A stretch of DNA of 18,129 bases from a virus (taxonomy: Duplodnaviria; Heunggongvirae; Uroviricota; Caudoviricetes), in the IMG/VR virus record IMGVR_UViG_3300012281_000006. One strand, written 5' to 3'. The notes beneath the pieces were generated by a model. That model did no database searches. It was not told the DNA's origin and was given only the letters and a program-made list of their open reading frames with translations. Each line of letters begins with the position of its first letter. Position 1 is the stretch's first letter. Shown here piece after piece: positions 412-17,773 of the stretch. The translations under genes were made by a program, and so were the position numbers.

Positions 412-479
412 TAGATTGCTCTAATCTGGAGTCACCTGGTGTTTTCAGTTTGAGGTCGGAGATGCAATCTGATTTTTTA

Positions 480-527
480 NNNNNNNNNNNNNNNNNNNNN
501 NNNNNNNNNNNNNNNNNNNNNNNNNNN
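480..527. other. Run of 48 N (assembly gap or masked sequence)
   Basis: Literal n characters in the sequence. Confidence 0.95.
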
Positions 528-749
528 GCGTTCGCTTTTGCAGGATATGTTTGTATTGGCTTCTGTGTATACATAATCAGCCGAAAAATGCTTGTCGATA
601 TCGACCGCAAAGAACGAGCAGAGGAGATCTTAGTATGGATTTTCTTTGGCGCAATCTGGCCATTAGGGATCATGTTTGCTGCAACATTTCTTCTGATGTG
701 GATATTCACCCTTCCAGGTGATTTCTATAGAAAAAAAGCCAGACATTGA
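528..749 (+). CDS. Small hydrophobic (membrane) protein fragment; 5' part lost in the N-run
   Basis: Frame open from the gap to the stop at 747-749; translation AFAFAGYVCIGFCVYII...WIFFGAIWPLGIMFAATFLLMWIF is two hydrophobic stretches typical of a small membrane protein; an internal ATG at 588 is an alternative start. Confidence 0.25.
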   Translation, partial: AFAFAGYVCIGFCVYIISRKMLVDIDRKERAEEILVWIFFGAIWPLGIMFAATFLLMWIFTLPGDFYRKKARH

Positions 750-819
750 TACAATCGTTGCGGGTGCTTGAGGCTATCTGCTTCAGGCATTACCAGAAAA
801 GCAGATAGAAGAAAGCCCC

Positions 820-885
820 AGATAACATTACGCGTCCTGCAAGACGCTTAACATTAATCTGAGGCCATATCTATGCTTAGCATAC
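820..885 (-). ncRNA. Possible sok-like antisense RNA to the hok/mok leader (position inferred)
   Basis: Minus-strand sigma70-like elements (TTGACC as rc of 912-917; GCTAAT as rc of 889-894) facing into the mok start region; hairpin GCGTC-N6-GACGC at 833-852; inferred by analogy to hok/sok, not demonstrated. Confidence 0.2.
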
Positions 886-1079
886 GTAGATTAGCCTCTT
901 ACCGACCAAAAGGTCAAGGAGAAGCAGGCTATGAAGCAGCAAAAAGCGATGTTAATCGCTCTGATCGTCATCTGTTTAACCGTCATTGTGACGGCACTGG
1001 TAACGAGGAAAGACCTCTGCGAGGTACGAATCCGAACCGGCCAGACGGAGGTCACTGTCTTCACAGCCTACGAATCTGA
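873..1079 (+). CDS. mok-like reading frame overlapping hok (modulator of hok translation)
   Basis: 68-codon ORF starting at ATG 873 and overlapping the hok ORF in another frame, the arrangement of mok/hok in hok-sok loci. Confidence 0.4.
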   Translation: MLSIRRLASYRPKGQGEAGYEAAKSDVNRSDRHLFNRHCDGTGNEERPLRGTNPNRPDGGHCLHSLRI

Positions 1080-1086
1080 AAGGTAA
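931..1086 (+). CDS. hok: Hok/Gef-family type I toxin (small membrane-depolarising peptide)
   Basis: 51-aa ORF MKQQKAMLIALIVICLTVIVTALVTRKDLCEVRIRTGQTEVTVFTAYESER; RBS AAGGAG at 916-922; near-identical in pattern to Gef/HokC as I recall it (MKQHKAMIVALIVICITAVVAALVTRKDLCEVHIRTGQTEVAVFTAYESE). Confidence 0.8.
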   Translation: MKQQKAMLIALIVICLTVIVTALVTRKDLCEVRIRTGQTEVTVFTAYESER

Positions 1087-1093
1087 GAGACCT

Positions 1094-1113
1094 GGCGGGG
1101 AGAGATCCCCGCC
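1094..1113 (+). promoter_or_regulatory. Stable GC-rich stem-loop 3' of hok (GGCGGGGA-GAGA-TCCCCGCC), candidate mRNA 3' stabiliser or fold-back element
   Basis: Perfect 8-bp stem with GAGA loop directly after the hok stop; no U-run follows. Confidence 0.4.
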
Positions 1114-1156
1114 ACTCTTCGTGTGTCAGGTATCCTCAATGCACCCTTTCCTCTCC

Positions 1157-1182
1157 AAATAAAAAAGCTACCCGAAGGAGCT
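1157..1182 (-). terminator. Rho-independent terminator of the minus-strand structural operon
   Basis: Hairpin at 1167-1182 followed on the minus strand by a T-run (A-run 1157-1166 on plus); lies just downstream of the ORF ending at 1204. Confidence 0.6.
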
Positions 1183-1203
1183 TTAAAATACAAGGGATGA
1201 CTC

Positions 1204-17057: not shown

Positions 17058-17133
17058 GATGGTGTAGCTCAGCGGTTAGAGCGGTTGACTGTTAATCAAC
17101 GGGTCGATGGTTCAAATCCATCCACCATCGCCA
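17058..17133 (+). tRNA. tRNA-Asn (anticodon GUU), CCA encoded
   Basis: Manual cloverleaf: acceptor GATGGTG/CACCATC, D-arm GCTC-AGCGGTTA-GAGC, anticodon loop CTGTTAA, T-arm GATGG-TTCAAAT-CCATC, discriminator G, CCA. Confidence 0.9.
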
Positions 17134-17135
17134 AT

Positions 17136-17211
17136 GCCGGTTTAGCTCAGTTGGTAGAGCGCCTGCCTTGTAAGCAGGATGTCAGCGGTTCGAGTCCGTT
17201 AATCGGCACCA
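17136..17211 (+). tRNA. tRNA-Thr (anticodon UGU), CCA encoded
   Basis: Manual cloverleaf: acceptor GCCGGTT/AATCGGC, D-arm GCTC-AGTTGGTA-GAGC, anticodon stem CCTGC/GCAGG with loop CTTGTAA, T-loop TTCGAGT, discriminator A, CCA; starts 2 nt after tRNA-Asn. Confidence 0.9.
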
Positions 17212-17686: not shown

Positions 17687-17773
17687 GGAGAGTAGGGAGC
17701 ATGGTGCTCAAGCGGTCTTGAAATCCGTCCCGTCGCGCAAGCGATGATGGTTCGATTCCATTACTCTCCGCCA
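17687..17773 (+). tRNA. Type II (long variable arm) tRNA-like gene, Ser-like, anticodon UGA predicted, CCA encoded; non-canonical D-arm
   Basis: Acceptor GGAGAGT/ACTCTCC, anticodon loop CTTGAAA (same loop as E. coli tRNA-Ser UGA as recalled), variable-arm hairpin TCGC-GCAA-GCGA, T-arm GATGG-TTCGATT-CCATT, discriminator G, CCA; one extra nucleotide before the D-stem and a T-T mismatch in the anticodon stem. Confidence 0.5.

What the first reader, a model, noticed from the sequence alone, without database searches (positions are those of the whole stretch)
760..1115. Hok/Gef-family type I toxin-antitoxin locus (hok, overlapping mok-like frame, candidate sok antisense) next to the late structural operon
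The 51-aa ORF at 931-1086 is a clear Hok/Gef homologue (LIVICLTVIVTALVTRKDLCEVRIRTGQTEVTVFTAYESE). An overlapping 68-codon frame starts upstream at 873, as mok does in hok/sok loci. A 9-bp inverted repeat at 770-807 and a GC stem-loop at 1094-1113 flank the locus, and a minus-strand promoter-like sequence faces the mok start, which would fit a sok-like antisense RNA. I do not recall a hok-type addiction module as a described P1 feature; the known P1 addiction system is phd/doc. A second, RNA-based post-segregational killing system on a P1-like replicon would be notable.
Basis: partly seen in the sequence, partly recalled or inferred. Interest (0 to 1): 0.6.

Follow-up and report, generated by a model that had tools for sequence, protein, structure and literature searches.

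The report
Ordinary hok/sok toxin–antitoxin cassette on P1-like plasmid
This is a complete, canonical hok/mok/sok RNA-regulated toxin–antitoxin cassette in a known variable slot of a P1-like phage-plasmid; it is real, but it is already annotated in hundreds of public P1-like plasmids, so it is ordinary rather than new.

Summary
Window 931-1086 encodes a 51-aa Hok toxin (Pfam HOK_GEF, E=2.4e-22). A 68-codon mok frame starts at 873. The leader 762-936 matches Rfam RF01794 at 109.8 bits against a cut-off of 59.

Every RNA element of the hok family is present. The 5' end (762-773) pairs with the 3' end (1134-1146), and 11 of 30 related loci carry compensatory changes in that helix. The mok ribosome-binding site is sequestered. 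The Sok target hairpin also covaries. A conserved antisense promoter (TTGACC-18-TAATCT, 917-888, minus strand) would give a Sok RNA of about 70 nt covering the mok start.

The cassette, plus a small unknown ORF, replaces rlfA-rlfB-pmgF of reference P1 between repL and bplB. That slot is a published variable region.

It is not rare. At least 417 of 679 P1-like plasmids in PLSDB carry it in this context, annotated hokD. Only 99 carry rlfAB. So do 212 of 5,426 complete E. coli genomes.

The closest tested relative, hokW-sokW (88% nucleotide identity), is a proven type I toxin-antitoxin system. No function has been tested in a P1 context. Interest is low.

The parts
415..431 (+). Remnant of the P1 C1 operator Op55 and left junction of the inserted module. 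The first 11 nt (ATTGCTCTAAT) are identical to P1; homology to reference P1 ends at 425.
   Evidence: P1 has ATTGCTCTAATTATAAC, the window has ATTGCTCTAATCTGGAG.
462..749 (+). Small hydrophobic ORF of unknown function ('orf81'; it contains the N-run 480-527). It belongs to the same inserted module but is not part of the toxin-antitoxin system.
   Evidence: PHROG 3772, E=2.6e-53, unknown function. Annotated as a hypothetical protein in CP103741. No significant Pfam or NCBIfam hit.
728..755 (+). hok/mok promoter candidate: TAGAAA, 16-nt spacer, TG-n-TACAAT. The inferred transcript start is about 762.
   Evidence: Promoter scan. The Rfam model and the conserved GGGYGCUUGAG 5' end both begin at 762.
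762..780 (+). tac element, the 5' end of the hok mRNA. It pairs with the 3' fbi element in the full-length RNA and can alternatively pair with 813-819.
   Evidence: In the minimum-energy fold 762-773 pairs with 1134-1146. The duplex is -27.0 kcal/mol with 18 pairs. The U-A to C-G change is compensatory in 11 of 30 loci. The alternative tac/813-819 stem appears in the fold of 762-822.
813..819 (+). Upstream complementary box (mok anti-Shine-Dalgarno), AAGCCCC.
   Evidence: Pairs with the mok SD 861-864 in the full-length fold. The G-C pairs are invariant in 30 loci. Terminology follows PMC9841398.
816..866 (+). Sok-target hairpin of the hok mRNA, which is the complement of the Sok stem-loop.
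   Evidence: Consensus helix with compensatory A-U to G-C changes in 9 loci and G-C to A-U changes in 9 loci.
806..881 (-). Predicted Sok antisense RNA, about 70-76 nt. It has a single-stranded 5' tail, a long hairpin and a U-rich 3' end, and it covers the mok SD (861-864) and the mok AUG (873-875).
   Evidence: Mapped from the sokW annotation of 933W. Fold -32.9 kcal/mol, z=-6.0. sokW is a 71-nt RNA shown experimentally to act as antitoxin (PMC8621323). The ends are not determined here.
888..917 (-). sok promoter: -35 TTGACC (917-912), 18-nt spacer, -10 TAATCT (893-888).
   Evidence: TTG(A)CC(T) / 17-18 nt / TAnnCT is conserved in 30 loci. It aligns with the same segment of the IncFII R1-type locus.
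873..1079 (+). mok reading frame, 68 codons, preceded by SD GAGG at 861-864. Its ATG lies 58 nt upstream of the hok ATG, so it is in the +1 frame relative to hok.
   Evidence: The R100/R1-type allele has the same 58-nt, +1-frame geometry (70 codons).
931..1086 (+). hok toxin gene, 51 aa, with SD AAGGAG at 916-921.
   Evidence: Pfam HOK_GEF E=2.4e-22. PHROG 251. 47 of 51 residues identical to HokW of 933W.
896..903 (+). 5' arm (CUCUUACC) of a conserved long-range helix that closes the coding domain. Its partner is 1082-1089 (GGUAAGAG), which spans the hok stop codon.
   Evidence: The helix is present in all 30 loci and is essentially invariant.
1093..1114 (+). 3'-UTR G+C-rich hairpin, 9 perfect pairs. 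It probably protects the 3' end of the processed mRNA.
   Evidence: Mutations in the last stem-loop of truncated R1 hok mRNA destabilise the mRNA (PMC9841398).
1127..1146 (+). fbi (fold-back inhibitory) element, CAGGUAUCCUCAAUGCACCC. It is the 3' partner of tac. Homology to other hok loci ends at about 1148.
1161..1190 (.). P1-backbone hairpin, AAAGCU(A)CC-CGAA-GGAGCUUU, flanked by A and T runs. It is a likely terminator for the convergent late operon (bplB) and possibly for hok mRNA. Homology to reference P1 resumes here, so it marks the right junction.
   Evidence: The fold is weak (z about -1) and the role is inferred.

Best explanation
This is an intact hok/mok/sok type I toxin-antitoxin cassette of the hokD/hokW subgroup. 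It sits as cargo in the repL-bplB variable slot of an IncY P1-like phage-plasmid.

The proposed mechanism is inferred from homology to the R1 and Sp5 systems; nothing was measured here.

1. A weak constitutive promoter (728-755) makes a stable mRNA of about 385-425 nt.
2. The 5' end of that mRNA (tac, 762-773) pairs with its 3' end (fbi, 1134-1146). The mok ribosome-binding site (861-864) is held by an anti-SD box (816-819). The full-length RNA is therefore neither translated nor bound by Sok.
3. Slow 3' trimming back to the G+C hairpin (1093-1114) removes fbi and allows refolding that exposes the mok start.
4. The short-lived Sok antisense RNA is made from the strong minus-strand promoter at 917-888. 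It pairs across the mok start region and the duplex is cut by RNase III.
5. When Sok is no longer replenished, mok is translated. This happens after loss of the plasmid or after a shut-off of transcription. Ribosomes then run through the hok SD and AUG, and the membrane toxin Hok is made.
6. The cell is killed. In the prophage state this stabilises the low-copy plasmid alongside phd/doc.
For: Shown from the sequence:
- Hok family membership.
- Leader covariance-model hit at 109.8 bits.
- The mok ATG aligns with the mok ATG of 28 of the 30 related loci (two rows lack an ATG there), and has the same 58-nt, +1-frame geometry as the R100/R1-type allele.
- tac/fbi closure is predicted in the window and is supported by compensatory changes in 11 of 30 loci. 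Sixteen of the 79 consensus pairs carry double changes.
- The mok SD is paired to the anti-SD box in the full-length fold.
- The sok promoter geometry is conserved across Escherichia, Kluyvera, Photorhabdus, Pantoea and Citrobacter loci.
- The Sok candidate folds with z=-6.

Integrity and selection: the same cassette occurs at 99% identity or more in 285 PLSDB plasmids and in this exact context in at least 417.

From the literature:
- The closest tested homologue, hokW-sokW, has a toxic Hok and a 71-nt antitoxin RNA that depends on RNase III and Hfq (PMC8621323).
- The R1 mechanism and its elements are described in PMC9841398.
- phd/doc is conserved in P1-like plasmids (PMC9603915).
Against: - There are no expression or phenotype data for this copy or for any P1-borne copy.
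- The sok -10 hexamer matches only 3 of 6 and was missed by the generic promoter scan.
- Minimum-energy folding of 3'-truncated RNAs did not reproduce the open tac/anti-SD conformation. That pairing does appear when the 5' 61 nt are folded alone.
- The 3' end and terminator of the mRNA are not defined. No U-run follows fbi, and the nearest hairpin belongs to the P1 backbone.
- Some chromosomal hok loci are known to be inactive, so an intact sequence does not prove activity.
Confidence: 0.85

Rival explanations
1. The cassette mainly serves the lytic cycle. On induction Sok disappears, Hok is made early, and membrane damage speeds growth arrest, lysis and progeny release, as shown for hokW-sokW of the Stx2 prophage Sp5. 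This reading does not exclude plasmid stabilisation.
For: - The locus shares 88% nucleotide identity and 47 of 51 Hok residues with hokW-sokW.
- In Sp5, deleting hokW-sokW delays growth arrest by about 40 min and halves released phage (PMC8621323).
- The cassette lies between the C1-controlled lytic replicon repL and the late tail operon.
Against: - P1 is a plasmid prophage and has its own holin and endolysin system.
- There is no evidence that induction lowers Sok in P1-like elements.
- A terminator-like hairpin upstream (706-721) and another downstream (1164-1184) would insulate the cassette from phage transcription.
Confidence: 0.3
2. The cassette acts as an abortive-infection defence. Infection by a virulent phage shuts off host transcription, Sok decays, and Hok kills the cell before the invader completes its cycle. 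This protects the P1-carrying clone.
For: - R1 hok/sok has been reported to exclude T4 (general knowledge of the family). Phage defence is listed among the roles of these systems in 10.1101/2025.08.07.668861.
- The slot it occupies is a cargo hotspot of P1-like elements (PMC9603915).
Against: - The same survey found no enrichment of hok next to defence systems.
- Nothing in the window links the cassette to other defence genes.
- It was not tested.
Confidence: 0.15
3. The cassette is an inactive relic, like several chromosomal hok loci, carried along as a passenger with the neighbouring small ORF.
For: Among the 36 related genomic loci extracted, five were left out of the comparison because an end did not align with the conserved element. 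These were L011, L012, L027 and L042 at the 5' end and L016 at the 3' end. In the 30-locus comparison two loci have a 19-codon mok and two lack an aligned mok ATG.
Against: - All elements are intact here: both promoters, tac/fbi, SDs, both ORFs and the hairpins.
- The window's tac/fbi duplex is among the strongest in its group.
- The cassette is kept at 95% identity or more in about 570 plasmids.
Confidence: 0.07

Closest known systems
hokW-mokW-sokW of Stx2 phages 933W / Sakai prophage 5
   Same: About 88% nucleotide identity over 759-1146. Hok is 47/51 identical. It has the same leader, tac/fbi, Sok stem (96% identical) and promoter positions. It is an experimentally verified type I toxin-antitoxin system (PMC8621323).
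   Different: - The window has one extra T (914). This makes the sok -35 TTGACC with an 18-nt spacer and puts mok in the +1 frame (68 codons). In 933W mok is an in-frame 19-codon extension of hok (70 codons).
- The Sok 5' tail and mok start segment is only about 65% identical, so cross-neutralisation is unlikely.
- The host element is a plasmid prophage, not an integrated lambdoid phage.
hok/mok/sok (parB locus) of IncFII plasmids R1/R100
   Same: The architecture matches element by element. The Rfam leader model hits both (109.8 and 87.2 bits). The mok ATG is 58 nt upstream of hok in the +1 frame, and mok ends just before the hok stop. The aligned sok promoter segment and the 5'/3' fold-back are shared.
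   Different: The sequences are much more distant. By my count of the alignment about 19 of 51 Hok residues are identical, and HokW shares 44% identity with R1 Hok (PMC8621323). The Sok-target hairpin here is longer. The replicon is a phage-plasmid rather than a conjugative plasmid.
hokD (relF) / prophage hok loci of E. coli chromosomes (Rac, Qin, lambdoid prophages)
   Same: 88-91% nucleotide identity. This is the name PGAP gives to the P1-borne gene. Related loci are present in 4,748 of 5,426 complete E. coli genomes.
   Different: The chromosomal copies sit in integrated prophages. Some related chromosomal copies have ends that do not align with the conserved elements. The mok frame differs.
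phd/doc of P1
   Same: It is the addiction module of the same kind of replicon and would have the same presumed selective effect, killing or arresting cells that lose the plasmid.
   Different: phd/doc is a type II protein-protein system with no sequence or mechanistic relationship to hok/sok. It lies outside this window.

Membership tests
[quoted passage not shown] | Hok/Gef toxin of about 50 aa with an N-terminal transmembrane helix and a conserved C-terminal region | tested here: met
   PF01848 E=2.4e-22, full-length match 1-42 of 42. PHROG 251 E=4.9e-32. NCBIfam Hok subfamily E=2.8e-13 but below its curated cut-off (49.5 against 73 bits).
[quoted passage not shown] | mok leader reading frame starting upstream of hok and running through the hok SD and start codon, giving translational coupling | tested here: met
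   ORF 873-1079 with SD GAGG at 861-864. Its ATG aligns with the mok ATG of 28 of the 30 related loci, and it has the same 58-nt, +1-frame geometry as the R100/R1-type allele. Coupling itself was not tested.
[quoted passage not shown] | Long-range 5'-3' pairing (tac/fbi) that closes the full-length mRNA | tested here: met
   762-773 pairs with 1134-1146 in the minimum-energy fold (z=-7.5). The duplex is -27 kcal/mol. The pair at alignment columns 4/403 is U-A in 17 loci and C-G in 11.
[quoted passage not shown] | mok SD sequestered by an upstream anti-SD box, with an alternative tac/anti-SD stem after 3' processing | tested here: inconclusive
   Sequestration is predicted and the tac/813-819 pairing is possible. 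The minimum-energy folds of truncated RNAs did not switch to the open form.
[quoted passage not shown] | cis-encoded antisense Sok RNA with its own promoter, complementary to the mok translation initiation region | tested here: met
   At sequence level only. There is a conserved TTGACC-18-TAATCT promoter, a hairpin with a U-rich tail (z=-6), and a position equivalent to the annotated and experimentally active sokW. No transcript evidence is available here.
[quoted passage not shown] | Hok toxicity, neutralisation by Sok, and post-segregational killing | not testable with these tools
   Shown for hokW-sokW and R1 hok/sok in the literature. Not shown for any P1-borne copy in the papers searched.
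Rfam RF01794 'sok' | Score above the gathering threshold of the covariance model | tested here: met
   109.8 bits against 59, over the full model 1-157. Caveat: the match is on the hok-sense strand, as in the 933W and IncFII loci, so it identifies the hok leader.
P1-like phage-plasmid variable region 5 (rlfA-rlfB-pmgF slot) | Cargo lying between repL and bplB with P1 backbone on both sides | tested here: met
   P1 homology ends at 425 and resumes at about 1160. The neighbouring genes are repL and bplB-pmgG-21-22. The region is listed as variable in PMC9603915.

The most novel reading that the evidence does not exclude
In P1-like phage-plasmids the hok/sok cassette may be wired into the lysis-lysogeny switch rather than being only a passive addiction module. 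It sits immediately after a retained half of the C1 operator Op55, downstream of the C1-controlled kilA-repL operon, and it converges on the late tail operon. Induction could therefore change the hok:Sok balance through read-through, transcriptional interference or loss of Sok. Hok would then assist host shut-down and lysis as HokW does in Sp5. That could explain why this form has largely displaced rlfAB in natural P1-like elements.
Probability: 0.15. Interest if true: 0.45.

Novelty: already known. Interest (0 to 1): 0.15.

Why it matters
It matters little as a discovery. The family, its mechanism and this very allele are already in public annotation.

Two practical points follow.

1. The laboratory reference P1 is atypical at this slot. 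Most sequenced natural P1-like plasmids in PLSDB carry hok/sok in addition to phd/doc. Many P1-like plasmids carry resistance genes. This is relevant to their stability and persistence.
2. No one appears to have tested what hok/sok does in a phage that is also a plasmid. It could stabilise the plasmid, help lysis or exclude other phages. The experiment is easy to do.

Tried and rejected
- The generic sigma-70 scan did not find the sok promoter because the -10 matches only 3 of 6. I accepted the site only after showing conserved position and spacing in 30 loci.
- I first labelled the CUCUUACC/GGUAAGAG helix as 'ucb/dcb'. Reading PMC9841398 showed that ucb is the mok anti-SD box, so the label was corrected (note).
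- Having seen that the closest relatives and one IncFII variant carry mok in frame with hok, I checked whether the window's +1 frame was aberrant. My recalled R1-type sequence proved 100% identical to R100 and many other plasmids and has the same +1 frame. Both states occur naturally.
- Folding 3'-truncated mRNAs to reproduce the open conformation gave no switch.
- Plasmid R1 itself (KY749247) is not in the plasmid collection, so R100 and IncFII records were used instead.
- Two paper searches and one in-paper term search failed on the three-character rule for search terms.
- Searches for a paper that characterises hok/sok on P1-like elements found only passing mentions.
- The large protein-database, structure-prediction and metagenome tools were not used. 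The family assignment was already unambiguous.

Full report
**Observation**

The region was read directly and its ORFs listed.

- hok ORF: 931-1086 (+) encodes MKQQKAMLIALIVICLTVIVTALVTRKDLCEVRIRTGQTEVTVFTAYESER. It matches Pfam HOK_GEF over the whole model (E=2.4e-22, 78.7 bits against a cut-off of 22). It also matches PHROG 251 'MokW-like host killing' (E=4.9e-32).
- Overlapping frame: the 68-codon frame 873-1079 exists.
- Upstream repeat: the perfect part is 10 bp, 774-783 / 799-808.
- Downstream hairpin: the G+C hairpin is 1093-1101 / 1106-1114.
- Rfam: a scan of the whole window gives RF01794 'sok' at 762-936, 109.8 bits against a gathering score of 59.

**Anatomy**

- hok promoter. A promoter-like site, TAGAAA-16-TG-n-TACAAT, lies at 728-755. 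It sits just upstream of the conserved 5' end GGGUGCUUGAGG at 762.
- Full-length fold. Folding 762-1150 gives -156.8 kcal/mol (z=-7.5). In this fold 762-773 pairs with 1134-1146, the mok SD (861-864) pairs with 816-819, and 896-903 pairs with 1082-1089.
- tac/fbi duplex. The 5'/3' duplex alone is -27.0 kcal/mol with 18 pairs.
- sok promoter. On the minus strand TTGACC (917-912), 18 nt and TAATCT (893-888) face the mok start.
- Sok candidate. The 933W sokW annotation maps to window 881 down to 811. That RNA folds into a 5' single-stranded tail, a long hairpin and a U-rich end (-32.9 kcal/mol, z=-6.0). It covers the mok SD and AUG.
- Extent. The unit therefore spans about 728-1146.

**Comparative test**

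A scan of one genome per species with the Hok peptide returned 47 loci. I extracted 36 of them and set five aside because an end did not align with the conserved element. These were L011, L012, L027 and L042 at the 5' end and L016 at the 3' end. I aligned thirty copies with both ends intact, from Escherichia, Shigella, Kluyvera, Citrobacter, Pantoea and Photorhabdus plus phage 933W and the window.

RNAalifold recovered the textbook hok mRNA architecture. Sixteen of 79 pairs carry compensatory double changes.

| Helix | Change | Loci |
|---|---|---|
| tac/fbi | U-A (17 loci) to C-G | 11 |
| Sok-target hairpin | A-U to G-C | 9 |
| Sok-target hairpin | G-C to A-U | 9 |

The sok promoter geometry, TTG(A)CC(T) / 17-18 nt / TAnnCT, is kept in essentially all loci.

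An IncFII R1-type locus aligns element by element. The same Rfam model hits it and 933W, always on the hok-sense strand. The Rfam 'sok' hit therefore identifies the hok leader, not the antisense RNA. Sok is inferred from the promoter, the fold and homology.

**mok frame**

In the window the mok ATG lies 58 nt upstream of the hok ATG, so mok is in the +1 frame. This results from one extra T at 914 relative to 933W. In 21 of the 30 loci the distance is 57 nt, and mok is then an in-frame extension of hok. One IncFII variant is also in frame.

A 217-nt R1-type sequence that I recalled was verified as 100% identical to R100 (NC_002134) and was at least 99% identical in 2,690 plasmid records. It has the 58-nt, +1-frame arrangement with a 70-codon mok. 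Both states are therefore natural, and the window has the archetypal one.

This fits published evidence that translation of mok up to the hok start is what matters, not the Mok peptide (PMC9841398).

**Context**

The window is a segment of an IncY P1-like phage-plasmid. Its gene order is repL, the cassette, bplB-pmgG-21-22-23, parBA, repA, rdgC, dam and then tRNAs.

Reference P1 has rlfA, rlfB and pmgF between repL and bplB.

- Left junction. Homology to P1 stops at 425, inside the C1 operator Op55. The first 11 nt of the operator are kept.
- Right junction. Homology resumes at about 1160, at a hairpin downstream of bplB.
- Inserted module. It spans about 426-1158 and holds a small hydrophobic ORF of unknown function (462-749; PHROG 3772) plus hok/sok.
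- Source of the cassette. Homology to lambdoid-phage hok loci covers only about 750-1146. The cassette was therefore probably acquired from such a locus. That is an inference.

**Prevalence and prior knowledge**

| Collection | Count |
|---|---|
| PLSDB records carrying bplB | 679 |
| PLSDB records carrying rlfA-rlfB | 99 |
| PLSDB records with this cassette and both P1 junctions, annotated 'hokD' | at least 417 |
| Phage records holding it at 99% identity or more (one, MH422554, annotated 'MokW') | 6 |
| Complete E. coli genomes with it in the P1 context | 212 of 5,426 |
| Complete E. coli genomes with some related hok locus | 4,748 of 5,426 |

- Venturini et al. 2019 list '2 orfs including antibacterial toxin' and '3 orfs between repL and bplB' substituting rlfA-rlfB-pmgF (PMC6906374).
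- A 2022 survey of 77 P1-like plasmids names rlfA-rlfB-pmgF as variable region 5 and phd/doc as conserved (PMC9603915).
- A 2026 preprint mentions type I and type II toxin-antitoxin modules on a P1-like plasmid (PMC13596339).
- A survey of Hok diversity reports enrichment in prophages and large plasmids but does not single out P1.

I found no functional study of hok/sok on a P1-like element.

**Mechanism**

The best explanation is the canonical one described for R1 (PMC9841398).

1. A stable full-length mRNA is closed by tac/fbi, with the mok SD sequestered.
2. Slow 3' processing removes fbi and the RNA refolds.
3. Unstable Sok pairs at the mok start and the duplex is cleaved by RNase III.
4. 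When Sok decays, mok-coupled translation of Hok kills the cell.

The sequence elements and their covariation are shown here. Transcripts, processing, toxicity and plasmid stabilisation are inferred.

The closest tested relative, hokW-sokW (88% nucleotide identity), is a proven type I system. It also speeds growth arrest and doubles phage release on induction (PMC8621323). A lytic-cycle role is therefore a serious rival that does not exclude the first. Abortive infection is a weaker rival. An inactive relic is unlikely, given that every element is intact and the cassette is strongly conserved.

**A small extra point**

Against the hokD/hokW loci, the Sok stem (816-866) is 96% identical. The adjacent Sok 5' tail and mok start segment (867-887) is only 65% identical. 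This suggests divergence of the recognition segment, which would keep co-resident hok/sok systems from cross-neutralising. It is consistent with the report that chromosomal Sok RNAs did not inhibit R1 hok.

**Verdict**

The finding is a correct identification of a known, widely annotated element. It is nevertheless the commonest state of this slot in sequenced P1-like plasmids. Novelty: already known. Interest: low (0.15). The only open question is what the cassette does for a phage that is also a plasmid.

Noticed in passing
window 480-527: A run of 48 N lies inside the small ORF upstream of hok. In MH422554 and CP103741 the same place holds only 6 nt (CAGTTA). The masked stretch is therefore 42 nt (14 codons, in frame) longer than in relatives. 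It may be a real insertion or only a mask.
   Followed up: partly
window 9793-10054: A second N-run of 262 nt falls within the repA gene (positions 9478-10338 in the close relative CP103741).
   Followed up: no
window 415-431: The left recombination junction of the hok module falls inside the P1 C1 repressor operator Op55. The first 11 nt (ATTGCTCTAAT) are retained and the last 6 are replaced. The operator half-site may still bind C1 and affect transcription entering the module.
   Followed up: partly
window 462-749: A small hydrophobic ORF (81 aa in relatives) belonging to PHROG 3772, function unknown. It accompanies hok in P1-like plasmids but is not adjacent to hok in lambdoid phages.
   Followed up: partly
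window 762-936; L002 1504-1678; L052 182-353: Rfam RF01794, named 'sok antitoxin', matches the hok-sense strand in all three loci tested. In practice it is a model of the hok mRNA leader, not of the antisense RNA.
   Followed up: yes
window 873-933 and alignment A2: The mok frame is polymorphic in the family.
- +1 frame (58 nt): the window, L005, L024, L026 and the R100/R1-type allele.
- In-frame extension (57 nt): 21 of 30 loci, including 933W.
- 56 nt with a 19-codon ORF: two loci.

   Followed up: yes
window 867-887: The Sok 5' tail and mok start segment is the fastest-diverging part of the cassette. It is 65% identical to hokD/hokW loci, against 96% for the adjacent Sok stem. This is consistent with selection for non-cross-reacting antisense pairs.
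   Followed up: partly
window 17687-17773: ARAGORN calls a third tRNA, Ser(tga), that Rfam does not report at its gathering score. It overlaps the start of the tellurite/colicin-resistance CDS annotated in CP103741, so it is probably a false positive. The Asn and Thr tRNAs at 17058-17211 are supported by both tools.
   Followed up: partly
L013 (Acinetobacter idrijaensis, 275-bp contig); L025 (Xanthomonas pisi, 431-bp contig): Tiny contigs in non-enterobacterial assemblies carry hok fragments 100% identical to this allele. This looks like E. coli or P1-type contamination of those assemblies.
   Followed up: no
window 1164-1184: The hairpin downstream of bplB has a 1-nt insertion (A at 1170) relative to reference P1, where the 8-bp stem is perfect. 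It is the only terminator-like structure between the convergent late operon and hok.
   Followed up: partly
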